A stretch of 63,047 nucleotides of DNA from assembly GCA_035493355.1 (NCBI GenBank), contig DATJIJ010000110.1:1-63047 (forward strand), in the 5' to 3' direction. The notes under the pieces are model-generated. The model was not told the origin of the DNA. It saw only the letters and a list, made by a program, of their open reading frames with translations, and made no database searches. Numbering within the stretch: position 1 is the stretch's first letter; each line of letters starts with the position of its first letter. Both the position numbers and the translations under genes were made by a program. This DNA is from Candidatus Methylomirabilota bacterium. Lineage in GTDB: Bacteria > Chloroflexota > Limnocylindria > QHBO01. Below, one piece after another: positions 16,448 to 31,887 of the stretch.

Positions 16448-16517
16448 GACCAGCGACTACCCCTGCGTGGCGGATGCTGCGGTGCATCCTAGCCCGCGCA
16501 AGGCACGGGCGGGTTGC

Positions 16518-19400
16518 TTATAGGACGACGATGTTCTTGACCAGGTACGAGGTCCGGGTGTCCGGGCCGATGATGGCGATCCGGAGCGTGTAGGTGCCGG
16601 GGGAGGCGCGCACGCCCGAGAACTTCCCATCCCACACCGAGCTGCGCAGCCCGGCGTCGACCGTCTGGTCGACGGCGACGTTCCGCAGCAGGGCGCCACC
16701 CGTGGTCAGCACCTGGAACGTGTACTTGGCTCTATCCCCTGCCAGCCAGGAGATGGTCGTCGTGTCGTCTGTCCCGTCGCCGTTCGGGCTGATACTCCCA
16801 GGCGCGAGGCCGGGGGCGGAGAGGATGTTGATCGGCATCGAAGCGAGGCCGACGCTCACCTTCCCGGCGGTGACCGTGAGCGGCGTGGACGATGATCCGT
16901 CCACCCGCCAGGCCGCGCCCCCCGTCACCGGCACGGAGGCGGTTGGGCTGGAGCCGATCGCGTAGAGCGCCTGGTTGATCCCGCTCCGACGGCTGATGAC
17001 CACACCCCGCACCCGCGGACCCGATTCCACCTGGACGTCGTCGAAGTAGGAGATCCCCGAGAGCTTGCCGATACCGCCCCGGAAGACGAAGATCGACTTC
17101 AGGGTGATTGGGTAGTCGAATGCCCCGTCGTTGTCGCCGCCCGAGTGGGTCCAGTTGATGTCGGCGCCGTCGCCATAGAGCACCAACCGCTGCCATGAAT
17201 GCTGAAGGCTGCCGACCGCGCCCTGGAACGTCTCACCGGTCGCATCCGCGATCTTGATGTAGACCGGATTGGCGGACGCGTCCCCATAGGCCCACACGGA
17301 GATGCTGGTGGGGCTCCCCGAGATCGCGAGGTTGCGCTTCAGCTCTACCCCGCTCGACGTCGGGGTGAAGTTGTAGGTGAGCTGCATCGAGCCGGTGCCG
17401 CTGTGGCGCGAGGCCGAGAGGGCGATCGAGGCCGAGCCGCCACCCAGCGGGGTCGCCGACCACCCGGCGATCGAATCGAGGCCGGCGACCGTCACACGAG
17501 ATGCGGCATTCGGTGACGCCGCCCCGGCGCTCGTGCCGCCGTCGAGGGCCTCGGCCACGCGTCGCAGGGCGCCGTACGCCGGCTTCTGGCGGCCGCCGAG
17601 CTCGACCAGCCCATAGTTGTCGAGGCGAGTGGTGGTGCTGTTGCCGTTCTCGATCAGCTCGTAGGCAAACACCCCGCGGATCCCAAGGCGTGCGGCCATG
17701 AGGTAGCCACGGGCGGTGTAATCGGCCTGCTTGGCCTCGGTCACACCGACGTACGAGCTGCCCGATCCGGTGTAGGTGGACCAGCCGAACTCGGTGATCC
17801 AGAGAGGCTTTTGCCCCTTGGTGTCGAGGTAGGCCCGGGCGTTTTCGAGCCAGGTCGCCATCATGCTCGACTCCGGCTGCACCGCGACGTAGGTGTGGAT
17901 CGCGAGCGCGTCGAAACTGCTCCACGCGCCTGCGGCCACGATCCCATCCATGAAGGCCTTGTCGAATCCAGCCGTGCCGCCGAGGACCACGGTCGCAGCC
18001 GGGTCCTCCGCCTTGATCGCCGCATACGCTGCCTTCAGCATCGCCGCATAGGCGGCTGCGGACGGGGCGGGCTTCCAGAAGATCGACGAGTTCTCCTCGT
18101 TCCAGATCTCCCAGACGTGGATGCGGTCCTTGTAGCGATGCACGACCGCCTTCGCGTAGGCGGCGTAGTCGGCGTTGCTGCTGGGTGCGTAGAAGGGTCG
18201 GTCGCCGGCGGGGGCCGACGCGGGCGCTGACGATGCCCACGAGGCGGAGAACTCGAGCCGCCCGAGGATGCTGACGTGGTGCGCACGCGCGACCTCGACC
18301 GCCTGATCGAACTTCGCCCACTCGAACCAGCCCTTGCGCGATTCGAGCCGGTTCCAGTCGAACGACTCCCGCGTCATCCGGATCCAGGCACCTTCCATGA
18401 GGCGCGCCTGCCGCTCGGCCTCTGCGCGGTCGACCGTGTTGACGGTCGTCAGATGCGAGTTGATCCCGACGATCGAGGCGGGGCTGGCCGACTCGTAGCG
18501 TGCCGGCAGGCCTGCCAGATATGGCAGGCCGTAGGTCCAGGTGTTGCCTGATCGAGTGATGGTCAGCTTGGCGCGGACGGAGCCACTCATCATGGCAGCG
18601 TTGTCGGCCTTGCCGTTCCATGCCCACGAGAGCTCGGCTGCGCCTCCCGCGGCGCTGCCGGAGAAGGTTCGGATCCGGGCCGACTCGTCCTTGAGCGTGA
18701 GCGTGACGCTACCGGCCTCGGCTGGCCCGACCCGTACGGTCGTCGACTGCCCAGCCGATGGCACGAAGATCGGGGTCAAGGCGCGGAGCGGTGACCACGG
18801 TTCGTAGCTGTAGACGATGTTGTCGACAGTGATATCGGAGACTGTCTTGGTCCCGCCCGGGTTCTTGCCGAGGACGAACTTGTAGAGCTGGATCGGCAGG
18901 TCGAGGATCCCATCGCCATTGCCGGACTGGGTGGTGGCCGGCGCCACCTTTCCCGGCTCGATCGTCATCGTCTGCCAGCCGGTGAAGCTGACGTTCCCCA
19001 CCCAGTACAGGAAGATCTCGCCGCTCGAGTCGCGGAGCTGGAGGTAGACGACGTTCCAGCTGCCGTCGCCATGGACGTCGACCGAGATCGAGCGCGGCAA
19101 TCCCGGCAGCTCGACGGCGTGCGTGCTCTGCTTCGGCGAAAGGTAGACCTGCGTCGCGCTCGTGAAGTCGTAGTCGATCTGCATCGCGGCCGAGCCCTGG
19201 CTCTTCGGCGACGTGACCGAGGTGATCGTCCCCGGGCCGCTGGCCACGAACCAGTCCGTCAGCGAGGTGTCGTACGACTCGATCATCGTCGTCGTCACCG
19301 GCGGCGAGGCGGCCGCAGGCGTCGCCTGGGCGCCGAGCGCCAGACCGGCGACCAGTAGCGTGAGGAGATAGCGGCGCACACGGGCGCCCGTGACGGACAT
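16518..19400 (-). CDS. secreted clan GH-A glycoside hydrolase (PslG/GH39-GH5-like) with duplicated CBM-like modules and a C-terminal FlgD-Ig-like domain
   Basis: Signal peptide MSVTGARVRRYLLTLLVAGLALGAQATPAAA. The acid/base motif is HVWEIWNEEN and the nucleophile motif is PLWITEFGWS. Two related roughly 150-aa beta-sandwich modules are present (GSAAMQIDYDFTSATQVYL / GTGSMQLTYNFTPTSSGVEL). The C-terminus reads GDGTDDTTTISW ... VWDGK ... PGTYTLRI. Confidence 0.75.
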   Translation of the reverse strand: MSVTGARVRRYLLTLLVAGLALGAQATPAAASPPVTTTMIESYDTSLTDWFVASGPGTITSVTSPKSQGSAAMQIDYDFTSATQVYLSPKQSTHAVELPGLPRSISVDVHGDGSWNVVYLQLRDSSGEIFLYWVGNVSFTGWQTMTIEPGKVAPATTQSGNGDGILDLPIQLYKFVLGKNPGGTKTVSDITVDNIVYSYEPWSPLRALTPIFVPSAGQSTTVRVGPAEAGSVTLTLKDESARIRTFSGSAAGGAAELSWAWNGKADNAAMMSGSVRAKLTITRSGNTWTYGLPYLAGLPARYESASPASIVGINSHLTTVNTVDRAEAERQARLMEGAWIRMTRESFDWNRLESRKGWFEWAKFDQAVEVARAHHVSILGRLEFSASWASSAPASAPAGDRPFYAPSSNADYAAYAKAVVHRYKDRIHVWEIWNEENSSIFWKPAPSAAAYAAMLKAAYAAIKAEDPAATVVLGGTAGFDKAFMDGIVAAGAWSSFDALAIHTYVAVQPESSMMATWLENARAYLDTKGQKPLWITEFGWSTYTGSGSSYVGVTEAKQADYTARGYLMAARLGIRGVFAYELIENGNSTTTRLDNYGLVELGGRQKPAYGALRRVAEALDGGTSAGAASPNAASRVTVAGLDSIAGWSATPLGGGSASIALSASRHSGTGSMQLTYNFTPTSSGVELKRNLAISGSPTSISVWAYGDASANPVYIKIADATGETFQGAVGSLQHSWQRLVLYGDGADINWTHSGGDNDGAFDYPITLKSIFVFRGGIGKLSGISYFDDVQVESGPRVRGVVISRRSGINQALYAIGSSPTASVPVTGGAAWRVDGSSSTPLTVTAGKVSVGLASMPINILSAPGLAPGSISPNGDGTDDTTTISWLAGDRAKYTFQVLTTGGALLRNVAVDQTVDAGLRSSVWDGKFSGVRASPGTYTLRIAIIGPDTRTSYLVKNIVVL

Positions 19401-19442: not shown

Positions 19443-20444
19443 CTATTCGTACCGGGAACGCTGGTCCCCTGACGGGCCTGGGCGTGCCAGCAGGACGGAA
19501 GCGGAGAGGACCAGCGCCCGGCGCGCGGCCTTGCGCATCCGCAGGGAGTCCCTCGCTTGCCGGGCGGCCGCGACTCTCCCTCGTGGGAGCCCACGGACGC
19601 CCAGGCCGATCGCCATGCACAGCAGGCCCACGCTTCGGCTGACGCGAGAGCGCCCTCGGCGTGCCAGGAAATCCTCGATCCCGTCGACCCAGCGCGTGCC
19701 CCCCGGGGCCTGACTGCCACCGATGGCGTGATGCGCCCGAGCGGACGGAGCCAGACCTACCGACCAGCCGCGCTCGAGGAGGCGGGCGCACAGGTCCGTA
19801 TCCTCGCCATACAGAAAGATGCTCTCGTCGAACCCGCCGATCTCCCTGATCGCCGCGGGGCGCAGGAGCGCGACTGCGCCGCTGATCCATTCGACGCTGC
19901 GCGTCGCCGTTCGGGTGGAGGGGCGGAGCATCCAGCCGCGCCAGGCGCCGCCCCGATCGTCGGGGATGAGCCGGTTCAGGAAGAGGAAGTGGCTGGCGAG
20001 GGAGCGAAGGCCGGGGAGCATTCCCGCGCTCTCGGCGCCGCCGATGCCCGCGCCCGAGATGGACGGTCCAACGGCGGCCAGCCGAGCATTCGCGGTAATC
20101 GCCGCGTGGAGCGCGGCAACCGTCCCGTCGTCGAGTCGTGCATCGGGGTTCAGCAGCAGCCACCACTCGCCGCGGGCCATCGCGAAGGCCTGGTTGTTGG
20201 CGGCGCCGAACCCCCGGTTCTCGGCGTTGCGCATGACGGTGGCGGCGGGGAATGCCGCGGCGGCGACATCGGCCGCTCCATCGGTCGAGGCGTTGTCCAC
20301 CACGATGAGCTCGGTCGCGACGCCCGCTCCATCCGCGGAATCCACTGCCGACCGCAGGCAGTCGACGACGTCACCACGACTCTGATAGGTGACGCAGATG
20401 ACAGTAAGCCCGACGGCAGCTCCGTTCGGCTTGGTTGCGCTCAC
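19443..20444 (-). CDS. glycosyltransferase family 2
   Basis: ORF 19443..20960 trimmed to GTG 20442-20444 (GTGA overlap with the upstream stop). Motifs: LTVICVTYQSRGDV ... LIVVDNASTDG ... NRGFGAANNQA. Confidence 0.85.
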   Translation of the reverse strand: MSATKPNGAAVGLTVICVTYQSRGDVVDCLRSAVDSADGAGVATELIVVDNASTDGAADVAAAAFPAATVMRNAENRGFGAANNQAFAMARGEWWLLLNPDARLDDGTVAALHAAITANARLAAVGPSISGAGIGGAESAGMLPGLRSLASHFLFLNRLIPDDRGGAWRGWMLRPSTRTATRSVEWISGAVALLRPAAIREIGGFDESIFLYGEDTDLCARLLERGWSVGLAPSARAHHAIGGSQAPGGTRWVDGIEDFLARRGRSRVSRSVGLLCMAIGLGVRGLPRGRVAAARQARDSLRMRKAARRALVLSASVLLARPGPSGDQRSRYE

Positions 20445-21586
20445 CGCCCGAGGTCCCGGTAGACCGCCACCACACCCTCGACCATCCGCTCGACCGAGAA
20501 TTCCGCGGCCACGCGGGCGCGTGCGGCCTCCCCGAGCCGTTCCATGCGTCGTGGCTCGGCCAGCAGCGCCGAGATGGCATCGGCCAGTGCCCCCGTGTCG
20601 CCGGGAGGCACGAGGACCCCGCTCACGCCATTCTCGACCATCTCGGGCACGCCACCGCCGGAGGCGGCCACGACCGCGCAGCCCGCCCGCATCGCCTCGA
20701 GGACCACGGTCGGGAACGGATCCGGCCAGGTCGACGGAACGGCGACCACGTCTGCCGCGTCGCACACGGCTGCGCCATCGGCGATAAACCCGGGTGTCAG
20801 CACGCGATCGGTCAGGCCAGCTGCGGCGAGGCGTTCCTGGAGATCCCGGGTCCGCCACTCCTCGCCGGGCGGCGGGTCGCCCGCCACCACGAACCGCGCA
20901 GCCGGGAATGCGGGAGCGACCTGCGCCAGGGCCCGCACGAAGAGGTCGTACCCCTTCCATCGGTTGAGCCGGCCGATGTAGGCAACCAGCGGCCCGTCAC
21001 CCGACAGCGCGGCAAGCGGTGCGGGCTCGCGCGGCGGGATGCCGTTGCGGACCGTCACGATCCGGCCGGCGCGCAGCCCCCATTGCGTCAGGTGTCGGCG
21101 CACGGCATCGCTCACGCAGATGACGCGATCGGCGGTCAGGACCGGCGCGAGGCGCAGCAGCCAGGCGATCGGCCGTGGCCGGACCACGATCTCGTGGACG
21201 TGCCACGCCATGCGGCAGCCGCCCGGGCGTCCGAGGATGGCGGCGACCAGCAGCGCGGTCGTGTTGACGTGGACGATCTGCGCGTGGAGGGCCCGCACCC
21301 GCCGGCGAAGATGGCGGCGCGCGGCGATGAGCGCGCGCAGGTAGGCGGGCAGGCCGGCAAGCCGCAGATAGCGACGTCGGGCCGGCGCGAGCGGCCCGCG
21401 CTCGAAGGCAATCCCCTCTGCGGCGAGCTGCGAGCTGAGCCAGCCGGGCGGTAGGTCGTCCGCAAGGATGACCGCCACCCGCTGCCCGCGGTCCCGGAGT
21501 GCCAGGACGAGGCTGAGCAGGACCCGGTCGGCGCCATACGCCTCGTCGGAGGCATGCAGGAAGAGGACGTCGACCGGCTGGCTCAT
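20441..21586 (-). CDS. glycosyltransferase family 4 (GT-B)
   Basis: Trimmed to ATG 21584-21586 (MSQPVDVLFLHASDEAYGADRVLL), an ATGA overlap with the Wzx stop. C-terminal motif: PSTWPDPFPTVVLEAMRAGCAVVAASGGGVPEMV. Confidence 0.85.
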   Translation of the reverse strand: MSQPVDVLFLHASDEAYGADRVLLSLVLALRDRGQRVAVILADDLPPGWLSSQLAAEGIAFERGPLAPARRRYLRLAGLPAYLRALIAARRHLRRRVRALHAQIVHVNTTALLVAAILGRPGGCRMAWHVHEIVVRPRPIAWLLRLAPVLTADRVICVSDAVRRHLTQWGLRAGRIVTVRNGIPPREPAPLAALSGDGPLVAYIGRLNRWKGYDLFVRALAQVAPAFPAARFVVAGDPPPGEEWRTRDLQERLAAAGLTDRVLTPGFIADGAAVCDAADVVAVPSTWPDPFPTVVLEAMRAGCAVVAASGGGVPEMVENGVSGVLVPPGDTGALADAISALLAEPRRMERLGEAARARVAAEFSVERMVEGVVAVYRDLGR

Positions 21587-23043
21587 CCGCCGGCGAGCCG
21601 GGAGCGCTGCCAAGCGCCAAGCATCGGCCGTCCGGGCCCGATGAGCGCAACCAGCCCGTAGGCGACGAGGCCCGTCGCACCGGCCAGCAGCGGCGCCCAC
21701 GGCTCCGGCGCCGCCGCCCGCACCGCCAGTCCGGCCAGCGCGCCGATCGTCGAGGCAGCCGCCAGGCCGATCATCGCCGTGGGGTCCATTCCGACCGACC
21801 CGAACTGGCGGCGAACGAAGAGCGCATAGAGCGCCCCTACCGCCAGCGCAGCAGCAATGGCTCCCCCGACAGTGGCCACCAGCCCGAACGCCGGAATCGC
21901 AAGGAGGTTGATGCCGATCACCAGCGCCAGCGCCGTGGCGGCCGCCGCGACGCGCTTTCCCTGCGCGTCCGCACTCGTGAGCGCGACGCCGTAGAGGTAG
22001 CCGAGGTAGCGGATCGGCACCGCGAGCGACAGCGCGGCGAGAACCCAGCCCGTCTCGGGCGGGGTGTCGAAGAGGGCCGGCAGCAGCCGATCACCGGTGG
22101 AGACGAGCACCGCCGGGACCGCCCCGCCGATCAGCAGCAGGCCGCGCCCCACCTGCCCGAGCAGCGGCGCCACCCGCTCGGGCTCGTGGACGAACCGCCG
22201 CGCAAGCTCCGGGAAGGCGCCTCGCGCAGCCGCCTCCGGGACGTACTCGAACGACGCGATGAGGCGGGTAGCAGCGAAGTAGGAGCCGGCCGCCGCCAGC
22301 CCGCCTGGGATCAGCAGGCCGACGATTACGGTGTCGACGCGGGTGTAGGCGATCCCGAGCACCGCGAATGCCGCGAAGGGCGGAGACTGGCCAGCGAGGC
22401 GGCGAAACTCGGTGCCGGTGGGGAGTCCCATCGAGACGCGGCCGATGAGGGCCACGAGGGCGAAGCCCGCGAGCGCCGAGCTCACCAGGACGGCGACACC
22501 GGCGCCGAAGATCACGGCGCTCGGGAGGTCGGGGCGCAGGGCGAGCAGCCCGGTCACGACGCCGACCCAGGCAAGGTTCTCGACCACGATGTGCGCGGCG
22601 CTGACGCCGAATCGCTGGCGAGCCATGAAGACGGCCCGGGTCAGCTCGGCGAACGACTGGATCGCGATTCCGGTCGCGACCAGGAGGATCGTCGGCGCCG
22701 CGTCTCCCCCGATGGCGAGCGCCACCACCGCGGCGACCATGATCGCCACGCTGAGCGTCACCAGTCGGAGGAGCGACATGCCGATCAGCAGCGGGCCGGC
22801 GCGCCCTGGCTCCCGCGCCGCCTCCCGGACGAGGAGCGAGATCGCGCCGAGGTCGGAGAGGGCGCCGGCGATGGAGCCGATCGCAAAGCCGAGCGCGACG
22901 GCTCCGAGCTCCACGTCGCCCCGCAGCCGCCCGACGAGCGCCAGCACGACCAGCGTGGTACCGGCTGAGATGATGCGCCCGACCAGCAGGATCGCGGTCC
23001 GACGCGGCATCGATGGGCCGGGGCCGTAGGGTGCCGGCGTCAT
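21583..23043 (-). CDS. Wzx-type oligosaccharide flippase (MOP/polysaccharide biosynthesis protein family)
   Basis: About 14 TM spans and Polysacc_synt-like N-terminus RRTAILLVGRIISAGTTLVVLALVGR. Start taken at ATG 23041-23043, 5 nt after the upstream stop. Confidence 0.75.
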   Translation of the reverse strand: MTPAPYGPGPSMPRRTAILLVGRIISAGTTLVVLALVGRLRGDVELGAVALGFAIGSIAGALSDLGAISLLVREAAREPGRAGPLLIGMSLLRLVTLSVAIMVAAVVALAIGGDAAPTILLVATGIAIQSFAELTRAVFMARQRFGVSAAHIVVENLAWVGVVTGLLALRPDLPSAVIFGAGVAVLVSSALAGFALVALIGRVSMGLPTGTEFRRLAGQSPPFAAFAVLGIAYTRVDTVIVGLLIPGGLAAAGSYFAATRLIASFEYVPEAAARGAFPELARRFVHEPERVAPLLGQVGRGLLLIGGAVPAVLVSTGDRLLPALFDTPPETGWVLAALSLAVPIRYLGYLYGVALTSADAQGKRVAAAATALALVIGINLLAIPAFGLVATVGGAIAAALAVGALYALFVRRQFGSVGMDPTAMIGLAAASTIGALAGLAVRAAAPEPWAPLLAGATGLVAYGLVALIGPGRPMLGAWQRSRLAGG

Positions 23044-23047
23044 TGGC

Positions 23048-23863
23048 TCACGCCGTGGTCCATGAGTCGGAGTGCAGGATGCGAACCGCGTTGGCCAGCT
23101 GCTTCGCGGCAAGGGTACCCGCGAAGACCCCGGCGAGCACGGGGAGCACCAGCGGCCGCGCCGCCCCGCCGAGTGCCATGCGACCCCCGTCGGCCAGCAG
23201 GGCGAGGCAGAAGAGATTCATCGAAGCCGGGTAGTTCCAGAGAAAGGCCACCCGCCGGTAGAGCCAGTAGAGGATCGTCATTGGCGAGGCGCCGGCAGGG
23301 AGCGGGGACGCATCGATCCGCCCGTGGGAGAGGTCGGCCGCGGCCGGCCGTCGGCCGGTCACGTTGAGCCGAGCCTGGTCGCCGAATGGCGACGCGAAGG
23401 CGACCCCGAGCAGCGCCAATGCGGCTGCCCACGGCGCGAAGTCGCTCTCGACCATCAGCGCGTAGCCGGCCGCGCCGTAGAGCGCCCGGTTCTGGATGAA
23501 GTGGCCGGCGAGGTCCAGGTAGGTGCCGCGCAGGCCGGAGGTACCGCGGACCCGGGCCACCTCGCCGTCCACGACGTCGAGCAGGTATGCCAGCTGGAGG
23601 AGGAGGACGGCGACGAGGTAGGCCGTGGCGCTCGCCGGGACGATCGCCAGCCCGCCGGCGACCCCGGCCGTGATGGAGAGCGCAGTCACGGCATCGGCCG
23701 GCAGTGCCGTGAAGCGGGTGATCGCGAACGTGACGTACGGAGAGATGCGCCGGATGGCGAGCCGCGCGTAGGTGGGGTCGGCGAGGAGGTGGCGATCGTT
23801 CTGGCCGGCGTCCCGTACCTGCGCCAGGGTTCGCGGCCTGGCGGGCCGCGTCTGGTCAGCCAT
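23048..23863 (-). CDS. CDP-alcohol phosphotransferase family membrane protein (paralogue A)
   Basis: Family signature DVVDGEVARVRGTSGLRGTYLDLAGH = D-x2-D-G-x2-A-R-x8-G-x3-D-x3-H, with His in place of the final Asp. Multi-TM. 8-nt overlap with paralogue B. Confidence 0.8.
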   Translation of the reverse strand: MADQTRPARPRTLAQVRDAGQNDRHLLADPTYARLAIRRISPYVTFAITRFTALPADAVTALSITAGVAGGLAIVPASATAYLVAVLLLQLAYLLDVVDGEVARVRGTSGLRGTYLDLAGHFIQNRALYGAAGYALMVESDFAPWAAALALLGVAFASPFGDQARLNVTGRRPAAADLSHGRIDASPLPAGASPMTILYWLYRRVAFLWNYPASMNLFCLALLADGGRMALGGAARPLVLPVLAGVFAGTLAAKQLANAVRILHSDSWTTA

Positions 23864-24728
23864 CGGCGTCTGCTCGACCGTCGGCGTCGCGTCTCGCTTC
23901 GACCATGCGGATCAGCGCGTGATTACGGCGCGCGCTCAGCATCAGGTGGGCCGGGAACGCCAGCGCCCACAGGCCCAGCAGCACGCCGCGGGCGGAAGGG
24001 GCCGCGGGGAGCGTCAGCGCCAGCAATATGTCGAGCAGCACCGCCAGGGTGACGAGGTGGACGCTGCCGGGATAGATGAGCACCTCCCCGATGAGCGAGC
24101 GGAGCGAACGACCGTGGGCGCGACCGGCGATCCCCCCGCGGTCCTCGACCGCCATCGAGGCGACACCGGCCGCGGCGACGTCACTGGGACGGGCGTCGTC
24201 CCGTAACGCCGCCTGGAACGGCGCACTGTTCGCCAGCGAGGGGTCCTCCCGCTGCATCGCGATGAGCACATGCTCCTTGCAGGAGAAGGTGAAGGCGGCG
24301 AGCTCGATCGCCGCAACCGCGCCGAGCGGCAGGTACGCGAACTGCTGGGCCGACCACGCGAGGCTGGCCGACACGCCGAGCGCGGTGAGCACCGGGACGT
24401 AGAAGTGCGTCAGCCAGTCGAGGTACGAACCGGCCACCGAGCTCCGACCCGTGAACCGGGCCACCTGCCCGTCTGAGAAGTCGAGGATGTAGCCGATCTG
24501 GAGTGCCGCGACCGCCGCAGCCGACCACCATCCCAGCGGCAGGAAGAGGATGCCTGCCCCGGTCGCACCAAAGGCCGCACCGAGCAGGGTGACCTGGTCC
24601 GGGCTGAGGCCAAGCTTGAGGCAAACGAGGGTGAAGTACGGCGACAGATGGGCGCCGTACAGTCGGTTGAGCGCGAATTCCTGCTCCGGCCGCTTCCGGG
24701 CGACCTCGAGCACGCGCTGCAGCGTCAC
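23856..24728 (-). CDS. CDP-alcohol phosphotransferase family membrane protein (paralogue B)
   Basis: Trimmed to GTG 24726-24728 (GTGA overlap). Signature DFSDGQVARFTGRSSVAGSYLDWLTH, again ending in His instead of Asp. Confidence 0.8.
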   Translation of the reverse strand: MTLQRVLEVARKRPEQEFALNRLYGAHLSPYFTLVCLKLGLSPDQVTLLGAAFGATGAGILFLPLGWWSAAAVAALQIGYILDFSDGQVARFTGRSSVAGSYLDWLTHFYVPVLTALGVSASLAWSAQQFAYLPLGAVAAIELAAFTFSCKEHVLIAMQREDPSLANSAPFQAALRDDARPSDVAAAGVASMAVEDRGGIAGRAHGRSLRSLIGEVLIYPGSVHLVTLAVLLDILLALTLPAAPSARGVLLGLWALAFPAHLMLSARRNHALIRMVEARRDADGRADADG

Positions 24729-25450
24729 GGACGAAGCCTCGGCAGGAGGCTGCGGGCGAGCGCCAGGTCGGCCGGGAAGTCGATCTCCGTCCATGCGCGC
24801 CCGGCGGTCGGAATGGCGCGTACCTTCAGCCCGGCCTCGATGGCTCGATTCACGGCTGCCTCGAAGTAGGACGCGAGCCCGCCCGCTGCCAGCTCGGCAT
24901 CCATGCCCTCTACGATGCGCGAGACCGCAGCCGCGCGAAAGATGCCGACCCCGATGAACTCGCCAGCGGTCTCAGCCGGAAGCAGCTCCTTTGACAGCCT
25001 GAGGACCCGATCGCCGTCGAGGGCGGCCTTCATCTGCTCCGGCTCGCACTCGCGAACGTCGATGGGCAGGGCGGCGTCGGCGTCGCTGGTGATGAGGTCA
25101 TCAAGAACGCTCGGCTCGAAGACGGTATCGGCGTGGAGGTAGACGAAGTCGTCGGAAAGGTGCTTTCGCGCCATCCACGCTGAGCCGATCACGTTTGTCA
25201 CCGACCAGAAGGGGTTCCAGACGAATGCGGCCGTCATCGGCGTGCGCAGGCGGGCGCTCACCGCCGCTTCGACCTGTCCCCGCTCATAGCCCGTCACCAC
25301 CACGACCCGCTCCACGCCGCGGCTGGCGAGCAGGTCGAGCTGCAGCTCGAGCGGCGAGATTCCGCCCAGGTCGACAAGCGACTTCGGCCGTCCCTCCGTC
25401 TCGGCGCCGAGTCGCGACCCTCGGCCGGCGGCCATGATCAGTGCATCCAC
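24725..25450 (-). CDS. small nucleotidyltransferase, LicC / IPCT-like (phospho-alcohol cytidylyltransferase type)
   Basis: Trimmed to GTG 25448-25450. N-terminal VDALIMAAGRGSRLG...PKSLV (the G-x-G-x-R-L nucleotide loop). About 240 aa, with the C-terminal W-x-E-I-D motif (RAWTEIDFPADL) as in LicC-type enzymes. Confidence 0.7.
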   Translation of the reverse strand: MDALIMAAGRGSRLGAETEGRPKSLVDLGGISPLELQLDLLASRGVERVVVVTGYERGQVEAAVSARLRTPMTAAFVWNPFWSVTNVIGSAWMARKHLSDDFVYLHADTVFEPSVLDDLITSDADAALPIDVRECEPEQMKAALDGDRVLRLSKELLPAETAGEFIGVGIFRAAAVSRIVEGMDAELAAGGLASYFEAAVNRAIEAGLKVRAIPTAGRAWTEIDFPADLALARSLLPRLRP

Positions 25451-25460
25451 GGACCCCTCC

Positions 25461-26612
25461 TCACAGACTGGCCACGGCCAACTCCGCGAGATCGCTGGGC
25501 GCCGTCGGACCCGGGTCGTTGGCCAGCGTTCCCTCCACCCTCGACACGATGTCGGCAACCTGGTCCGGCCGAACGCCAAGCGACGCCAGGCCGCCAACCA
25601 TCCCGATCTCGCGCATCCAGTCGCCGATCCGCTCGATCAGGCGATCGGCGCCAACTCCGGGAGGCTCCGTAGGGGAGACGCCGCAGCGGACCGCCAACTC
25701 GTCGAGGCGCTCGACGGCGTGGACCCGCGTGCGTCGCAGCCATGCCGGCATGATCGCCGCCACGCCCCGCGCGTGCGAGGCATCGGTGAATCCGGCGAGG
25801 GCGTACTGCATCCGATGGGGCAAGCAGGTCGATGCAGTCGCCAGGTTGATTCCCATCAGGAGTGCTGCGTAAGCGGCCCCGCTCCGCGCGTCGATCGAGT
25901 CCGGCTCGGCGATCGCCTGCGGTACGGCCTGGAGGAGACGACGCAACGCGTCACCCGCCAGTGCGATGTTGAGGGGCGATGCGGCGCGCGAGACGGCCGT
26001 CTCCAGGGCGTGCGCGGCGGCGTCGAATCCCGCCTCGGCGGTGATCGATCGATCCGCGCCCAGAGTGAGCTCCGGGTCCACGATTGCGACGCGCGGGGCC
26101 ACGCCGCGCCCGCGGATGGCACGCTTTCGAGTCGCGTCCCGCTGGAAGAGGATCGCCCCGCGGCTCACCTCGGCGCCGGTGCCGGCGGTCGTCGGCAGCG
26201 CGACCACCGGTGGCCCAATCGGGCGCGGGACTGGCTCCCCGGCAAGGAGCTCGCCGAGATCGGCCCCGCCGGCCACGATCGCGGCCGCCTTGGCGAGGTC
26301 CATCGTTGAGCCGCCACCAACGGTCACGACCGCGTCGGGCCGTGCCGCGACGAGCCGTTCCGCCGCGGCGTGAACCGCCTCGTCGTCGGGCTCGCCGCCG
26401 GTGGTCACGTGGTCCACCAACTCGACGCCGGCTGCCGTTAGCGACGCCCTGATCTCGTGGCCGAATCCGCCACGTTCCAGCGAGCGGGCGCCCGTCACGA
26501 GGACGGCGCGCCGCCCGAGGCCGGACACCACCTCCCCGACCTCACGGCGGCGCCCCAGCCCGAAGCGGATCTCGGTGTCGAGCATGAAGTCGAATGGCTG
26601 CGCGAGCGTCAC
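25461..26612 (-). CDS. group III iron-containing alcohol dehydrogenase family protein
   Basis: ORF 25461..27245 trimmed to GTG 26610-26612 (GTGA overlap). Motifs: VTVGGGSTMDLAKAAA, LPTTAGTGAEVS, and the metal ligand region FDAAAHALE ... LPHRMQYAL. Confidence 0.8.
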   Translation of the reverse strand: MTLAQPFDFMLDTEIRFGLGRRREVGEVVSGLGRRAVLVTGARSLERGGFGHEIRASLTAAGVELVDHVTTGGEPDDEAVHAAAERLVAARPDAVVTVGGGSTMDLAKAAAIVAGGADLGELLAGEPVPRPIGPPVVALPTTAGTGAEVSRGAILFQRDATRKRAIRGRGVAPRVAIVDPELTLGADRSITAEAGFDAAAHALETAVSRAASPLNIALAGDALRRLLQAVPQAIAEPDSIDARSGAAYAALLMGINLATASTCLPHRMQYALAGFTDASHARGVAAIMPAWLRRTRVHAVERLDELAVRCGVSPTEPPGVGADRLIERIGDWMREIGMVGGLASLGVRPDQVADIVSRVEGTLANDPGPTAPSDLAELAVASL

Positions 26613-28144
26613 AGGTTCTCGCTGCGAGCAGGCTGCGTGCGCAGGACCTCGGCGTGGCGCGCCAGCAGCTCCTCTCGCTCCGCGAAGAGGTCGCGGAGCG
26701 ACGCATACAGGCCTCGGTAGATCCCGAAGAAGTCCCGGTACATCTCGGTGCGCGCCGGGTCCGGCTCGAACGTGCGCCCGAACCTGACCGCCGCCCTGAT
26801 CGCCTCGTCGATCGATGCGTAGCCACCGGTCTTCACGCTCACCAGGATCGCGGCGCCGAGGGCGGTGCTCTCCAGCTCCTGCGTCACCGTCAACGGGACG
26901 CCCAGCATGTCCGCCTTGATCTGGAGGATCGGCTCGATGCGGGCGAGCCCGCCCGACGCGACCACCCGGTCGACCCGGATTCCGAGCTCGCGCAGTCGCT
27001 CCGCGATATCGAGCACGCTGTATCCAACCCCCTCGAAAACAGCTCGGAGCAGGTCGCTGCGCCGATGGTTGCGTCCGAGCCCGAAGAAGACCGCGCGGGC
27101 GCTCGGGTCCCAGACCGGCGCGCGCTCGCCAAGCAAGTAGGGCAAGAAGGTGATCCCCGCTGCCCCGGGCGGCGGATCGGCCGCGTCCAGATCCATGGCG
27201 GCATAGGGATCGGCCTCGAGGTCGTACAGGAGCTGCTTCACCCACTCGATGGCGCCGCCGCCGAGGTTGTTGGAACCGCCGATCAGGAATAACCCGGGTC
27301 GCACGTAAGGCGCGGAGAATAGTCGGCCCGCCGGGTCGCGGATCTCAAGGTCCGTCACGGCGCGAAAGCTCGTCACCGTGCCCGAGACGTCGCACGCCTC
27401 GCCGCTGACCGAAACGCCGGCGCCGTAGACCGCGCAAATCGCGTCGTAGGCTGAGAGGACAACCTGGCATCCGGCGGGCAGGCCGAAGCGCTCCTGCAGC
27501 TCGGGCCGGACCGGCAGACCCAGGTCGGTGCCGGCCACCGGTGGGAACGAACCGGAATCGAGGCCGATCGCGGAGAGCAGCGCCTCCGGATAGCCATCTC
27601 CGCCGAGGCCATGGAGGTACTTGCTGGCGTTCAGGGGATCGGTGACCACTTCGCCGGTGAGGCACGCAACGAGGAAATCATTCGGGGAGGCAAACCAGCG
27701 GGCCGCCGCGTAGCGCTCGGGCTCGTGGTCCCGCAGCCACATGATCTTGGGAAGCATCAGGTCCGGAGTCACCCGGCGCTGCGGTCTGGCCATCTCCAGG
27801 AAGACGCGCTGGCCTCCGATCGCCTCCGCCTGGGAGGCGGCGCGAACGTCGCTGATCATGATCGCCATGCCGAGCGGGCGGCAGCTGGCGTCCAGCGGGA
27901 CGAGGCAGCCTGCGGAGGCAGTGACGGTGATCGCGCCGACGGCCGAGAGGTCGACCTGCCCGAGCACCTCCGCGATCACCTCCTCGCCGGTGCGCCACCA
28001 TTCGTTCGGATCCTGCTCGACCCGACCCTCGGCGAGGGAGGTGGCGATCGGCCGGTAGGCGATCCCGCGCCGCTCACCGGCGGGTCCGAAGACCGCAGCT
28101 CGCATCGACTTCAGCCCGAGGTTGAGCACGAGGACGTCGCTCAT
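26609..28144 (-). CDS. FGGY-family carbohydrate/polyol kinase (divergent N-terminal motif)
   Basis: 511 aa with two-domain FGGY layout. C-terminal VVASGGLARIEPILQIKADMLGVPL. The N-terminal phosphate-1 motif reads LNLGLKSMR instead of D-x-G-T/S-T/S-x-x-K/R. Confidence 0.75.
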   Translation of the reverse strand: MSDVLVLNLGLKSMRAAVFGPAGERRGIAYRPIATSLAEGRVEQDPNEWWRTGEEVIAEVLGQVDLSAVGAITVTASAGCLVPLDASCRPLGMAIMISDVRAASQAEAIGGQRVFLEMARPQRRVTPDLMLPKIMWLRDHEPERYAAARWFASPNDFLVACLTGEVVTDPLNASKYLHGLGGDGYPEALLSAIGLDSGSFPPVAGTDLGLPVRPELQERFGLPAGCQVVLSAYDAICAVYGAGVSVSGEACDVSGTVTSFRAVTDLEIRDPAGRLFSAPYVRPGLFLIGGSNNLGGGAIEWVKQLLYDLEADPYAAMDLDAADPPPGAAGITFLPYLLGERAPVWDPSARAVFFGLGRNHRRSDLLRAVFEGVGYSVLDIAERLRELGIRVDRVVASGGLARIEPILQIKADMLGVPLTVTQELESTALGAAILVSVKTGGYASIDEAIRAAVRFGRTFEPDPARTEMYRDFFGIYRGLYASLRDLFAEREELLARHAEVLRTQPARSENL

Positions 28145-29034
28145 TCCGGCTCCTCGGTCCCGGCCGCGGCGTCGACCAGGGCCGTGGCTCGCGGTGCGCG
28201 GCCTGCGCTCCCGCAGAGCTCCATGTACTCGATCGCGAGCTCGCGGACGGCCGACCTTCCAGCGCCGAGGTAGTGCCGCAGGTCCCTGCTCGGTCCCTCG
28301 AGCTCCCGGGCGATGCCGTCGGCGAGCGCGCGCCCAACTCGCGACGAGATGTTCACCTTCCCGACCCCCGCGTCCACGGCGGCCGGGAGCTGGGCACGCA
28401 CGACCCCTGAGCCACCATGCAGCGCGAGCGGGGTGCCGGCCGCCCGTGCGAGCGCCGCGAGGAGCGCGATGTCCAGTTTGACCGAGTCGTCGGGCATCCG
28501 GTGGAGGCTGCCCAGCGCGGGCGCCAGGATGTCCACCCCGGTATCGGCGGCGAAAGCCGCGACCTGGTCGGGCGTCGCGGCTTCCCGTCGAGCGGCCTCG
28601 AGGCTGGAATCCTCCGACCCGCCGATCGTGCCGAGCTCGCCCTCGAGGATGGCGCCGGCCGCGTGCGCGTCCGAGACCAGGCGACGCGTGATCGCGACGT
28701 TCTCAGCGAGTGGGAGCGGCGAGCCGTCGAACATGACCGACGTGAATCCATCGGCCAGCGCCCGGTCGACCATTTCGGGGTCGCGGCAATGGTCCAGGTG
28801 CACGAGGACTGCCGCGCTCGACCGCGTCGCGGCGGTGAAGGCGAGGTCGCGGATCGTCTCGTACCCCGCGTAGGCGATCGCGCCCGGGCTGATCTGCAGG
28901 ATCACCGGCGAGCCGGCCGCCTCGGCCGCGGCGAGGATCCCCTGGATCGTCTCCATGTTGTTCACGTTGAAGGCGGGCAGCGCGTACCGACCGGCCACCG
29001 CCGCCGCCAGCAGCTCGGGGGCCTCTGGCCTCAC
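28141..29034 (-). CDS. class II (zinc) ketose-bisphosphate aldolase family protein (FBA / tagatose-bisphosphate aldolase type)
   Basis: ORF 28141..29454 trimmed to GTG 29032-29034 (GTGA overlap with the rmlD stop). Motifs: YALPAFNVNNMETIQGIL, VLVHLDHC, SVMFDGS, EGELGTIGGSED, LALHGGSG. Confidence 0.8.
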   Translation of the reverse strand: MRPEAPELLAAAVAGRYALPAFNVNNMETIQGILAAAEAAGSPVILQISPGAIAYAGYETIRDLAFTAATRSSAAVLVHLDHCRDPEMVDRALADGFTSVMFDGSPLPLAENVAITRRLVSDAHAAGAILEGELGTIGGSEDSSLEAARREAATPDQVAAFAADTGVDILAPALGSLHRMPDDSVKLDIALLAALARAAGTPLALHGGSGVVRAQLPAAVDAGVGKVNISSRVGRALADGIARELEGPSRDLRHYLGAGRSAVRELAIEYMELCGSAGRAPRATALVDAAAGTEEPE

Positions 29035-29903
29035 CGCGCCGGCCCGGCGCTCGACGCGGCCTCGACCAGGGAGGCGACGTAGGCGCGCGTCTCCTCTCCC
29101 CAGGTGAGCCGCGGCAATCCCGGGGTCGGGCGGAGGACGGCGCGAGGGGGGACCCGGGAGGCCCGTGGAAACGCCGATCGCGAGGTCGGCTCGAGCCGCA
29201 CCTCGCGACGCCCCTCCAGCGCGACCGTGGCCCACTCGAGCCGGCTCGCCGCCGGCGACCCGGCCAGGTGCACGATGCTGCCGGGCACATGGGCGTCGGT
29301 CACCCCGACGATCGCGGCGGCGAGGGCCGGCGTCCAGGTCGGGTTCCCCCACTCGTCGGCGACGACGCCCAGTGGGGTGTCGCCGGCCAGCGCTCGATCT
29401 GCCGCGGCGAGGATCTTCGTGACGAAGTTCGTGCCCCCTGGCCCAAAGAGCCATGCCGTCCGCACGATCAGATGGCGCGGCGCGGCCTCCGCGACTGCGC
29501 GCTCCCCCGCCAGCTTCGATGCGCCGTACGGATTGATGGGGCTCGGCAGACCGTCCTCCGCGTATGGTGCCGAGGCGCTCCCGTCGAAGACCTCGTTCGT
29601 GCTGATCTGTACAAAGAGCGCGCCGGCGCGGGCGGCACCGCCAGCCATCCGTCCGGGAGCGACACCGTTCAGCAGCATGGCGCGCTCGGGTGAGCGGGCG
29701 CAGCCGTCAACATCGGTCCAGGCCGCCGCATTCACAACGATCTCCGGCTCGAGCGATGCAATCACCTCGCCCGCCGCGGGGTCGGCGAGGTCGAGCTGGG
29801 AGCGATTCACGCTGACGACGGCATTTCCGGCGGCGGCAAAGGCGTCGACGAGCTGTCGTCCGAGCTGGCCCCTGGCACCCACCACCACGACGCGCTGGCT
29901 CAT
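29031..29903 (-). CDS. rfbD: dTDP-4-dehydrorhamnose reductase
   Basis: 290 aa. Motifs: VVVGARGQLG, PINPYGASKLAGE (the SDR YxxxK), VRTAWLFG. Confidence 0.9.
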   Translation of the reverse strand: MSQRVVVVGARGQLGRQLVDAFAAAGNAVVSVNRSQLDLADPAAGEVIASLEPEIVVNAAAWTDVDGCARSPERAMLLNGVAPGRMAGGAARAGALFVQISTNEVFDGSASAPYAEDGLPSPINPYGASKLAGERAVAEAAPRHLIVRTAWLFGPGGTNFVTKILAAADRALAGDTPLGVVADEWGNPTWTPALAAAIVGVTDAHVPGSIVHLAGSPAASRLEWATVALEGRREVRLEPTSRSAFPRASRVPPRAVLRPTPGLPRLTWGEETRAYVASLVEAASSAGPAR

Positions 29904-29904
29904 C

Positions 29905-31733: not shown

Positions 31734-31827
31734 TGAAGCCTCCCGGGGTTGGGGACCCGCTTCCTCGCGGGCGGGGCCGACTCGGTGAACGTGCCAGAGT
31801 GTAGACCAGCCTTCCCGCCGGAATCGG

Positions 31828-31856
31828 GTTACGGGAAGTGTCAAGAGTTTGATAAT
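31828..31856 (+). promoter_or_regulatory. candidate sigma-70-like promoter for the initiating transferase gene
   Basis: -10-like GATAAT at 31851-31856, 32 nt before ATG 31888. A weak -35 GTTACG lies 17 bp upstream. It sits in the 154-bp divergent, lower-GC spacer between rmlA and the transferase gene. Confidence 0.25.
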
Positions 31857-31887
31857 GCGAAGCAGGCTCCCGTAGAGTGGGCGGCGA

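What the first reader, a model, noticed from the sequence alone, without database searches (positions are those of the whole stretch)
23048..24728. Tandem CDP-alcohol phosphotransferase paralogues that both carry D-x2-D-G-x2-A-R-x8-G-x3-D-x3-H (final Asp replaced by His)
**Seen.** Paralogue A reads DVVDGEVARVRGTSGLRGTYLDLAGH (coded at 23501-23578). Paralogue B reads DFSDGQVARFTGRSSVAGSYLDWLTH (24405-24482). The two genes overlap by 8 nt and sit directly upstream of a Wzx flippase.

**Established.** The family signature is D-G-x2-A-R-x8-G-x3-D-x3-D. The last Asp is regarded as catalytically important in the solved members (IPCT-DIPPS, AF2299, PgsA-type enzymes).

**Inference.** A shared Asp-to-His change in both copies argues for a distinct sub-clade rather than a decayed copy. 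That sub-clade may have a different acceptor or mechanism. One copy might build a lipid- or polyprenol-linked primer and the other elongate or decorate it. The location in a glycan operon, rather than a phospholipid operon, is also atypical.
Basis: partly seen in the sequence, partly recalled or inferred. Interest (0 to 1): 0.6.

Follow-up and report, generated by a model that had tools for sequence, protein, structure and literature searches.

The report
His-variant CDP-alcohol phosphotransferase pair, glycan operon
Two adjacent membrane-enzyme genes in a surface-sugar operon of an uncultured Chloroflexia bacterium belong to a large branch of the phospholipid-synthase family, not described in the papers I could search, in which the supposedly invariant catalytic aspartate is a histidine; the branch probably attaches small phospho-alcohols such as glycerol phosphate to cell-surface glycans rather than making phospholipids.

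Summary
PT-A (23048-23863, minus strand, 271 aa) and PT-B (23856-24728, minus strand, 290 aa) overlap by 8 nt. Both read D-x2-D-G-x2-A-R-x8-G-x3-D-x3-H at the stated coordinates, and PT-A ends 4 nt before a Wzx gene.

- **Register:** the His aligns with D93, the fourth Asp (D4) and proposed catalytic base of M. tuberculosis PgsA1.
- **Conservation:** His is fixed in 86/86 PT-A and 68/69 PT-B homologues. dN/dS is 0.15-0.19.
- **Fold:** both AlphaFold models (pLDDT about 92) match AF2299, IPCT-DIPPS and PIP synthases.
- **Clade:** the two genes are not recent duplicates. They are separate lineages of one clade, about 90% His at D4, that is distinct from housekeeping enzymes (56/56 Asp in sampled Chloroflexota).
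- **Context:** clade members lie beside LicC/PntC/IPCT-type cytidylyltransferases and alcohol-phosphate or phosphonate supply genes in Wzx/Wzy glycan loci. One member is fused to a GT4 glycosyltransferase.

Best reading (about 0.5): these enzymes transfer a phospho-alcohol, probably glycerol phosphate, from a CDP-alcohol onto the lipid-linked rhamnose-containing repeat unit. PT-A is the core enzyme and PT-B an optional second one.

I class this as a new variant of a known kind. I found no biochemical description in the searchable literature.

The parts
23048..23863 (-). PT-A: 271-aa CDP-alcohol phosphotransferase-fold membrane protein, His variant. It is the core enzyme of the module.
   Evidence: PF01066 at 26.7 bits. 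AF2 model pLDDT 91.5; Foldseek best hit AF2299 4q7c at E 3.5e-5. 86 homologues, all with His. Present without PT-B in L052 and L004.
23501..23578 (-). PT-A signature DVVDGEVARVRGTSGLRGTYLDLAGH (D96, D99, G100, A103, R104, G113, D117, H121)
   Evidence: Motif scan. H121 aligns with D93 of Mtb PgsA1.
23856..24728 (-). PT-B: 290-aa second His-variant CDP-alcohol phosphotransferase of a different lineage; an accessory partner. The ORF extends to 24794, but the start is taken as the GTG at 24728.
   Evidence: PF01066 at 30 bits. GTGA junction with the upstream gene; gene callers give 290 aa (P0087). AF2 model pLDDT 92.7; Foldseek best hit AF2299 at E 8.2e-5. His in 68/69 homologues.
24405..24482 (-). 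PT-B signature DFSDGQVARFTGRSSVAGSYLDWLTH
   Evidence: Motif scan.
24725..25450 (-). LicC/PntC/IPCT-type nucleotidyltransferase (241 aa); the presumed CTP:alcohol-phosphate cytidylyltransferase that makes the donor
   Evidence: NTP_transf_3 at 6e-13. Best PDB matches are LicC 1jyk, Tde1415 6pd1 and 4jd0. The orthologue sits next to PT-A in all related loci.
25461..26612 (-). Group III iron-containing alcohol dehydrogenase (383 aa); part of the alcohol-phosphate supply module
   Evidence: Fe-ADH at 1.9e-38. PDB neighbours are methanol, 1,3-propanediol and lactaldehyde reductases. Replaced by a glycerol-1-phosphate dehydrogenase-like gene in L005-L009.
26609..28144 (-). FGGY-family carbohydrate/polyol kinase (511 aa)
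   Evidence: FGGY_N and FGGY_C. PDB neighbours are gluconate, xylulose and glycerol kinases. Conserved in L050 and L052.
28141..29034 (-). Class II ketose-bisphosphate aldolase (297 aa)
   Evidence: F_bP_aldolase at 2.8e-82; PDB matches. Conserved in L050 and L052.
21583..23043 (-). Wzx/MOP-family flippase; starts 4 nt after the PT-A stop
   Evidence: Polysacc_synt at 2.8e-9; junction sequence.
20441..21700 (-). GT4 glycosyltransferase (ORF limits; the true start is probably near 21586)
   Evidence: Glycos_transf_1 at 8e-35. Same position in L050-L052.
19443..20960 (-). GT2 glycosyltransferase (ORF limits; the true start is probably near 20400)
   Evidence: Glycos_transf_2 at 2e-16.
29031..32048 (-). 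rmlD, rmlB and rmlA (dTDP-L-rhamnose synthesis), the head of the same minus-strand gene string
   Evidence: RmlD_sub_bind at 7e-66, GDP_Man_Dehyd/Epimerase at 1e-78, NTP_transferase at 6.5e-54.
31888..33297 (+). WbaP-like initiating phosphoglycosyl transferase (Bac_transf + CoA_binding_3), divergent from the operon
   Evidence: Bac_transf at 6.9e-68. Same arrangement in L050 and L052.
15071..19400 (-). Wzy_C polymerase/ligase-like protein (15071-16447) and a 960-aa glycoside hydrolase-like protein (16518-19400); both are conserved members of the locus
   Evidence: The same genes occur in L004, L006, L050 and L052.

Best explanation
**What they are.** PT-A and PT-B are active, membrane-embedded CDP-alcohol phosphotransferase-fold enzymes. 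They belong to a distinct clade in which the fourth signature Asp (D4, the proposed general base and second-metal ligand) is His.

**What they do (inferred).** They do not make phospholipids. They are the transfer step of a 'phospho-alcohol decoration' module inside a Wzx/Wzy-type rhamnose-containing glycan operon.

**Proposed pathway**
1. The aldolase, FGGY kinase and Fe-ADH supply a small alcohol phosphate. Glycerol phosphate is most likely, because sister loci replace these three genes with a glycerol-1-phosphate dehydrogenase-like gene.
2. The LicC/IPCT-type nucleotidyltransferase converts it with CTP into a CDP-alcohol.
3. At the cytoplasmic face of the membrane, PT-A transfers the alcohol-phosphate to a hydroxyl of the undecaprenyl-diphosphate-linked repeat unit and releases CMP. 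That repeat unit is built by the Bac_transf initiating enzyme, the GT4 and the GT2.
4. Wzx then flips the unit and the Wzy_C protein polymerises or ligates it.

**Role of PT-B.** PT-B is an optional second transferase. It either adds a second phospho-alcohol or serves a different acceptor hydroxyl, and it may pair with PT-A as a heterodimer.

**Role of His121.** It stands on TM3 one helical turn after D117, where D4 stands in solved enzymes. It is proposed to replace D4 as the general base that deprotonates the acceptor hydroxyl.

**Shown versus inferred.** Shown: fold, motif, conservation, clade structure and gene neighbourhoods. Inferred: donor identity, acceptor identity and the role of His.
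For: **Family and fold**
- Both proteins pass the PF01066 cut-off. Both models match AF2299, IPCT-DIPPS and PIP synthases.
- Seven of the eight signature residues are intact, and so is the cytidine-binding (D/N)xxT on TM1.

**Selection**
- His is fixed in 86/86 and 68/69 homologues. dN/dS is 0.15-0.19.

**Distinct clade**
- 135 of the 150 best 50%-identity representatives have His.
- The clade is separated from Asp-type enzymes with 99% support.
- Every Asp-type enzyme sampled from Chloroflexota scores E >= 4.8e-9 against the A+B profile. 3,498 library representatives score E <= 1e-10.

**Donor side**
- The neighbouring nucleotidyltransferase is closest to LicC, PntC (Tde1415) and an inositol-phosphate cytidylyltransferase-like structure.
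- It is the one constant partner of PT-A across loci.
- The supply genes vary by locus:
  - aldolase + FGGY kinase + Fe-ADH (window, L050, L052);
  - a G1P-dehydrogenase-like gene, 7e-81 to NF002022 (L005, L009);
  - a PntC-PEP mutase fusion + Ppd + Fe-ADH (L014);
  - an IspD::DHBP-synthase fusion + SDR (L015);
  - a PntC-aminotransferase fusion (L011).

**Acceptor side**
- Every informative locus is a glycan locus, with Wzx, Wzy_C, glycosyltransferases or Bac_transf.
- One clade member is a single polypeptide, GT4::CDP-AP (P0296).
- Conserved residues cluster on the N-terminal helix and TM1-3, the donor site. TM4-6, the acceptor site in PIP synthases, are variable.

**Not housekeeping**
- The genome has a separate Asp-type enzyme (L001).
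- The His-type genes occur in only 3 of 301 sampled Chloroflexota species, and in 2 of 13 genomes of the genus.

**Literature**
- D4 is described as absolutely conserved and as the catalytic base, and D93N nearly abolishes MtPIPS activity (PMC4634129, PMC6506517).
Against: - No biochemical data exist for any member of the clade. The donor, the acceptor and the catalytic competence of His are all inferred.
- A lipid acceptor (diacylglycerol, a glycolipid anchor or polyprenyl phosphate) fits the same gene neighbourhoods.
- The window's Fe-ADH is not orthologous to the G1P-dehydrogenase-like gene of the sister loci. The nucleotidyltransferases are only 36% identical. The alcohol may therefore differ from glycerol.
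- The FGGY kinase is nearer to gluconate and xylulose kinases than to glycerol kinase.
- A minority of clade members carry N, G, Y, T, E or D at the His position. This is hard to reconcile with an indispensable general base.
- I could not inspect the model coordinates, so the geometry around His121 is argued only from helix register.
Confidence: 0.5

Rival explanations
1. **Lipid acceptor.** PT-A and/or PT-B act in a Kennedy-type reaction. They transfer the phospho-alcohol from the CDP-alcohol to diacylglycerol, a glycolipid or a polyprenol. The product would be a specialised phospho(glyco)lipid, for example the membrane anchor or primer of the polymer, and not a decoration of the repeat unit.
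For: All characterised family members that use soluble CDP-alcohol donors and are not solute synthases have lipid acceptors (established knowledge of CPT/EPT-type enzymes). The fold and the membrane-interface active site are retained. The neighbouring GT4 shows distant similarity to MshA/PimA-type enzymes, which recalls the mycobacterial pgsA1-pimA arrangement (from memory).
Against: The locus already has a dedicated initiating phosphoglycosyl transferase, a Wzx and a Wzy_C. The module is an accessory, strain-variable part of otherwise similar glycan operons. The GT4::CDP-AP fusion fits both readings.
Confidence: 0.22
2. **Obligate heterodimer with one non-catalytic subunit.** PT-A and PT-B form a heterodimer. 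Only one active site works, and the other subunit shapes the acceptor site.
For: Solved family members are dimers (PMC6506517). The two genes are translationally coupled through an 8-nt overlap. Pairs of one 'YLDW/Y...H'-type member with another His-type member recur in unrelated lineages (L005, L007, L015). Natural single-chain fusions of two such domains exist (P0193 and P0213).
Against: Both proteins keep every metal- and nucleotide-binding residue and the His. PT-A occurs without PT-B in an otherwise identical operon (L052) and in a genome of the same genus (L004/L053). The gene order is B-A here but A-B' in L005.
Confidence: 0.15
3. **Soluble phosphodiester synthase.** Like IPCT-DIPPS or the diglycerol-phosphate and glycerophosphoinositol pathways of hyperthermophiles, the nucleotidyltransferase plus PT pair makes a cytoplasmic compatible solute.
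For: The best structural and profile matches are AF2299, IPCT-DIPPS and (archaetidyl)inositol-phosphate synthases. The gene pair mirrors the two domains of IPCT-DIPPS.
Against: All scores lie far below the equivalog cut-offs. The genes sit between rml genes and Wzx/GT genes in a tightly packed gene string with overlapping or near-abutting junctions. Clade members are consistently found in glycan loci, and one is fused to a glycosyltransferase. No inositol-phosphate synthase is nearby.
Confidence: 0.05
4. **Inactive relics.** The loss of the catalytic Asp marks non-functional or purely structural copies.
For: D93N nearly abolishes activity in M. tuberculosis PIP synthase (PMC4634129). A few clade members have N, G or Y at this site.
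Against: His is invariant across 150+ homologues while the rest of the protein diverges to about 50% identity. There is strong purifying selection. All the other catalytic residues are kept. The clade is large and diverse.
Confidence: 0.03

Closest known systems
AF2299 and IPCT-DIPPS of Archaeoglobus fulgidus (PDB 4o6m/4o6n/4q7c, 4mnd)
   Same: Best structural matches for both proteins. Same six-helix CDP-AP core. They use a soluble CDP-alcohol made by a LicC/IPCT-type cytidylyltransferase, which is a fused domain there and a neighbouring gene here.
   Different: Those enzymes have Asp at D4. Their acceptors are soluble alcohol phosphates and their products are compatible solutes. TM-scores are only about 0.5 and identity about 16%. 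The window genes lie in a Wzx/Wzy glycan operon.
Phosphatidylinositol-phosphate synthases (M. tuberculosis PgsA1 6h53/6h59; RsPIPS 5d91; MkPIPS 6wm5)
   Same: Best sequence matches in PDB (E 6e-5). The signature on TM2/TM3 aligns residue for residue.
   Different: In those enzymes D93 (D4) is the proposed base and D93N is nearly dead; here the position is His. Their donor is CDP-diacylglycerol. NCBIfam scores are 29-36 bits against a cut-off of 170. The Arg pair that binds inositol phosphate is not a conserved feature of this clade.
TagF/TarL-type (Glyphos_transf) and LicD-type phosphotransferases
   Same: Predicted job: transfer of glycerol-, ribitol- or choline-phosphate, or of phosphonate, from a CDP/CMP-activated donor to a glycan. 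They are found next to cytidylyltransferases in glycan loci.
   Different: Unrelated folds. No Glyphos_transf or LicD domain occurs in the window's operon. In L014 a His-type CDP-AP and a Glyphos_transf gene sit side by side, so the two are not simply interchangeable.
Phosphonyl tailoring (Pnt) pathway with PntC cytidylyltransferase (Rice et al. 2019, PMC6697681)
   Same: Distant clade members sit beside PntC-PEP mutase or PntC-aminotransferase fusions (L014, L011). The window's nucleotidyltransferase matches Tde1415.
   Different: No PEP mutase or phosphonopyruvate decarboxylase is in the window, and the genome gives only a sub-threshold hit. The paper names LicD-like enzymes and glycosyltransferases as neighbours, and no CDP-alcohol term occurs in it.
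Eukaryote-type choline/ethanolamine phosphotransferases (CHPT1/CEPT1; 8ero, 8gyw)
   Same: CDP-AP fold that uses a soluble CDP-alcohol donor.
   Different: Weak structural matches (E 0.05 to above 1). Ten transmembrane helices, a diacylglycerol acceptor, and Asp at D4.

Membership tests
CDP-alcohol phosphotransferase superfamily (Pfam PF01066) | Profile match above the curated gathering score | tested here: met
   26.7 bits (PT-A) and 30.0 bits (PT-B) against a cut-off of 22. The margins are small.
CDP-alcohol phosphotransferase superfamily (Pfam PF01066) | Transmembrane CDP-AP fold with the signature spread over TM2 and TM3 | tested here: met
   AF2 models have pLDDT 91.5 and 92.7. The top Foldseek hits are all CDP-APs at probability 1.00. 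D96-R104 lie on helix 79-105, and G113, D117 and H121 on helix 111-139.
CDP-alcohol phosphotransferase superfamily (Pfam PF01066) | [quoted passage not shown] | tested here: not met
   Seven of the eight are present. D4 is His in both proteins and in about 90% of the clade.
CDP-alcohol phosphotransferase superfamily (Pfam PF01066) | Cytidine-binding P(D/N)xx(T/S) motif on TM1 | tested here: met
   D57 and T60 of PT-A align with the D and T of PgsA1 'PDVVT'. The clade consensus is N(87%)/D-x-x-T(95%). The Pro is offset or absent.
CDP-alcohol phosphotransferase superfamily (Pfam PF01066) | Transfer of a substituted phosphate from a CDP-alcohol to an acceptor hydroxyl with release of CMP | not testable with these tools
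   Needs an enzyme assay.
PgsA / PssA / PIP synthase / archaetidylinositol-phosphate synthase (NCBIfam equivalogs) | Score above the equivalog cut-off | tested here: not met
   The best scores are 40.8 against 180 (NF040950), 35.6 against 170 (NF045883) and 20.9 against 107 (pssA). The genome has a separate Asp-type enzyme that matches PF01066 at 118.6 bits.
IPCT-DIPPS (bifunctional inositol-phosphate cytidylyltransferase / DIPP synthase) | Equivalog-level match; fused cytidylyltransferase and transferase domains; inositol-phosphate supply | tested here: not met
   23.7 and 21.3 bits (PTs) and 45.3 bits (nucleotidyltransferase) against a cut-off of 580. The genes are separate. No inositol-phosphate synthase was found among the operon genes scanned, 15-33 kb of the window.
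TagF-like (PF04464) or LicD-like glycan phosphotransferases | Presence of the respective domain | tested here: not met
   No such Pfam hit in PT-A, PT-B or the operon genes. The resemblance is functional only.

The most novel reading that the evidence does not exclude
His-type CDP-alcohol phosphotransferases may be a widespread, unrecognised third class of glycan phospho-alcohol/phosphonate transferases, alongside the TagF-like and LicD-like enzymes. On this reading they work at the membrane on lipid-linked glycan intermediates, with a His general base in place of the 'invariant' Asp. They would accept a range of CDP/CMP-activated head groups (glycerol-1-phosphate, C4 polyol phosphates, phosphonates). 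In some lineages, including this window, they would operate as A/B heterodimers.
Probability: 0.35. Interest if true: 0.75.

Novelty: new variant of a known kind. Interest (0 to 1): 0.62.

Why it matters
**An 'invariant' residue that varies.** Structural papers treat the eight-residue CDP-AP signature as invariant and D4 as the catalytic base. A large clade under purifying selection carries His there. Either His can take over the base or metal-ligand role, or the accepted mechanism needs revising.

**A missing enzyme.** If the clade decorates lipid-linked glycans, it supplies a transferase that is missing from many environmental and archaeal glycan and phosphonoglycan loci. It would explain how cytidylyl-activated head groups (glycerol phosphate, other polyol phosphates, phosphonates) reach the cell surface where no TagF- or LicD-type enzyme is encoded.

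**Annotation.** Automatic names such as 'phosphatidylglycerophosphate synthase' or 'phosphatidylserine synthase' for these proteins are very probably wrong.

Tried and rejected
- **Decay or pseudogene:** rejected by the conservation and dN/dS results.
- **Mis-registered motif:** rejected by the phmmer alignment to PgsA1.
- **Recent tandem duplication:** rejected by 27% identity and by the tree.
- **Phosphonate donor in this window:** no PEP mutase or phosphonopyruvate decarboxylase in the window, and only a sub-threshold PEP_mutase hit in the genome, which is 70% complete. Unlikely, not excluded.
- **G019's weak PF01066 hit as a third His-type locus in relatives:** it turned out to be Asp-type.
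- **Literature:** eight full-text searches found no characterised CDP-AP acting on a glycan and no description of a His variant. The nearest was an annotation-level mention of a CDP-alcohol phosphatidyltransferase in a Schaalia cell-wall polysaccharide cluster (PMC11032452). Subscription journals are not covered.
- **Third homology search with a 132-sequence profile:** it added few new proteins because of the word filter.
- **Cluster names:** only generic labels.
- **Three context look-ups:** they landed on contigs too short to be informative.
Full report
**1.

On the minus strand, PT-A is 23048-23863 (271 aa). PT-B is the ORF 23856-24794. PT-B most likely starts at the GTG at 24728, which forms a GTGA overlap with the stop of the upstream gene. 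That start gives the 290-aa product that gene callers report (P0087).

The A/B junction reads ATGGCTGA, an 8-nt overlap. PT-A's stop is followed after 4 nt by the ATG at 23043 of a Polysacc_synt (Wzx) gene.

A six-frame scan returns the two motifs at exactly 23501-23578 and 24405-24482. Both proteins pass the Pfam PF01066 cut-off, by small margins (26.7 and 30.0 bits against 22).

The register is right. phmmer against PDB aligns PT-A 'DVVDGEVARVRGTSGLRGTYLDLAGH' with M. tuberculosis PgsA1 'DMLDGAMARERGGGTRFGAVLDATCD'. His121 therefore falls on D93, the fourth Asp.

**2. The change is selected, not decay**

- Homology searches found 86 PT-A-type and 69 PT-B-type proteins, down to about 50% identity. 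His is present in 86/86 and 68/69.
- Against the nearest orthologous locus, dN/dS is 0.19 for A and 0.15 for B.
- AlphaFold models are confident (pLDDT 91.5 and 92.7).
- The best Foldseek hits for both models are AF2299, IPCT-DIPPS and PIP synthases at probability 1.00.
- In the PT-A model, D96, D99, G100, A103 and R104 lie on one helix. G113, D117 and H121 lie on the next. This is the TM2/TM3 layout of solved family members (PMC4634129).

**3. His is not ordinary in this family**

Structural papers call the eight signature residues 'absolutely conserved' and D4 the catalytic base. D93N nearly abolishes the activity of M. tuberculosis PIP synthase.

- The window's own genome has a separate enzyme with Asp at D4.
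- In 20 related genomes, all 29 PF01066 matches that I could read carry Asp.
- In 301 sampled Chloroflexota species, all 27 weaker matches to a clade profile carry Asp. Only three genomes hold strong matches: this one, G174 (an A+B' pair) and G180 (a Gly variant).

**4. The two genes belong to a large His clade but to different lineages within it**

*Size of the clade.* A profile of A+B, searched against 1.84 billion cluster representatives, gave 11,288 hits at E <= 1e-3 and 3,498 at E <= 1e-10. Of the best 150, 135 have His, 3 Asn, 1 Thr and 2 Asp. The Asp-type enzymes of Chloroflexota all score E >= 4.8e-9 against the same profile at library scale. Most of the 3,498 are therefore probably closer to the His clade than to ordinary enzymes. 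I saw only the top 150, so the true size is unknown.

*Tree.* In a maximum-likelihood tree of 162 sequences, the clade is separated from Asp-type outgroups with 99% SH-aLRT support.
- PT-A forms its own deep lineage (100% support).
- PT-B sits in a different group marked by YLD[WY]xxH. That group also contains the second gene of an unrelated tandem pair (L015).
- A and B share 27% identity.

*Clade signature.* R38, S41, T45, (N/D)57-x-x-T60, Q90, D-x2-D-G-E-x-A-R-x5-S-x2-G-x2-L-D-x3-H, P212. The later helices are variable; in PIP synthases these form the acceptor pocket.

*Exceptions.* Some sub-branches carry N, G, Y, T, E or D in place of His.

**5. Context**

*The window.* The minus-strand gene string is rmlA-rmlB-rmlD-aldolase-FGGY kinase-Fe-ADH-nucleotidyltransferase-PT-B-PT-A-Wzx-GT4-GT2. 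Further on lie a 960-aa glycoside hydrolase-like protein, a Wzy_C protein, more GT4s and rmlC. A divergent WbaP-like initiating transferase sits upstream.

*Natural variants of the operon*

| Locus | Module next to the flippase |
|---|---|
| L050, L051 | identical to the window |
| L052 | same operon, but PT-A only |
| L004 / L053 (a genome of the same genus) | nucleotidyltransferase + PT-A only |
| L005-L008 | nucleotidyltransferase + glycerol-1-phosphate dehydrogenase-like gene (7e-81 to NF002022) + PT-A + a PT-B relative |
| L009 | the same genes, but the PT-B relative lies about 3 kb from PT-A |

The nucleotidyltransferase is orthologous across these loci (36% identity, 1e-39). The dehydrogenases are not. 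The nucleotidyltransferase's best solved relatives are LicC, the phosphonate cytidylyltransferase Tde1415 and 4jd0.

*Distant clade members*
- L014: beside a PntC-PEP mutase fusion, a phosphonopyruvate decarboxylase, an Fe-ADH and a TagF-like gene.
- L011: beside a PntC-aminotransferase fusion.
- L015: beside an IspD::DHBP-synthase fusion and an SDR, and arranged as a tandem pair.
- L013: beside a nucleotidyltransferase and a Wzy_C gene.
- P0296: fused to a GT4 glycosyltransferase.
- P0193 and P0213: natural two-domain fusions also exist.

**6. Reading**

Three constant features point one way. There is a cytidylyltransferase of the small-phospho-alcohol type. The supply genes for an alcohol phosphate or phosphonate are interchangeable. 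The setting is a Wzx/Wzy glycan locus with its own initiating enzyme. Together these suggest a module that activates a head group on CMP/CDP and transfers it at the membrane.

I consider a lipid-linked repeat unit the most likely acceptor. Glycerol phosphate is the most likely head group here. The reason is that PT-A orthologues at 65-67% identity are paired with a G1P-dehydrogenase-like gene. The aldolase/Fe-ADH/FGGY trio could also make glycerol phosphate by way of a triose. PT-A is the core enzyme and PT-B is optional. His121 is proposed to act as the general base.

None of this has been tested biochemically. A lipid acceptor remains a serious rival, and a heterodimer is possible. A solute synthase or an inactive relic is unlikely.

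**7. Comparison and novelty**

These proteins belong to the CDP-AP superfamily by profile and by fold. They fail one of its eight defining residues, and they fail every equivalog model for known phospholipid or solute synthases. Their predicted job resembles that of TagF- and LicD-type enzymes, but the fold is unrelated.

Eight full-text literature searches found no description of the His variant and none of a CDP-AP acting on glycans. The nearest item was an annotation-level mention in a Schaalia cell-wall cluster. Earlier notes of this scan reached similar readings for other genomes. I treat those as leads and re-derived the claims here.

My verdict is a new variant of a known kind, of moderate to high interest.

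Noticed in passing
L015:4877-8843: An IspD-type cytidylyltransferase is fused to a 3,4-dihydroxy-2-butanone-4-phosphate synthase (RibB) domain. It is followed by an SDR and a tandem pair of His-type CDP-APs in a Wzx/Wzy locus. This would fit a CDP-activated C4 polyol phosphate made from ribulose-5-phosphate, a head group I do not know from any glycan.
   Followed up: partly
L014:3209-9899: A PntC-like CTP-transferase::PEP mutase fusion, a phosphonopyruvate decarboxylase, an Fe-ADH, a His-type CDP-AP and a TagF-like Glyphos_transf gene lie in a row. This links the His clade to phosphonate (hydroxyethyl- or aminoethylphosphonate) decoration of glycans.
   Followed up: partly
proteins P0193 (554 aa), P0213 (598 aa), P0296 (679 aa; L016:1322-3361): Natural fusions exist: two His-type domains in one chain (P0193, where the motif Ala is also Arg: DGQVRR), an Asp-type plus a His-type domain (P0213), and GT4::His-type CDP-AP (P0296).
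   Followed up: partly
proteins P0317, P0319, P0323, P0326, P0341; L057 (G180:C9:38423-39064): Within the His clade some sub-branches have Asn, Gly, Tyr, Thr, Glu or Asp at the His position. Some also have Glu in place of D3 (…GKYIESLND, …YLDRLNG, …YVDHLAY).
   Followed up: no
L005:8934-10004; L009:6916-7995: A glycerol-1-phosphate dehydrogenase-like gene (archaeal EgsA / bacterial AraM type, 247-272 bits, below the 413-bit equivalog cut-off) sits between the cytidylyltransferase and PT-A in sister Chloroflexia loci. This suggests a CDP-glycerol of sn-1 configuration.
   Followed up: partly
window 16518-19400 (-): A 960-aa glycoside hydrolase-like protein (weak GH10/GH42/GH53/Glyco_hydro_cc and FlaA/FlgD_ig hits) is a conserved member of this glycan locus in L004, L006, L050 and L052.
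   Followed up: no
window 26609-28144 (-): The FGGY kinase of the supply module is closer to gluconate and xylulose kinases than to glycerol kinase. Another first-reader note says its N-terminal phosphate-1 motif is non-canonical. I did not examine it.
   Followed up: no
genomes G000-G020 and a 301-genome phylum sample: The His-type genes are accessory. They occur in 2 of 13 genomes of the genus, and strong matches occur in 3 of 301 Chloroflexota species. Related proteins turn up in WOR-3, Terriglobia, Nanopelagicales, Euryarchaeota and Pacearchaeota assemblies.
   Followed up: partly
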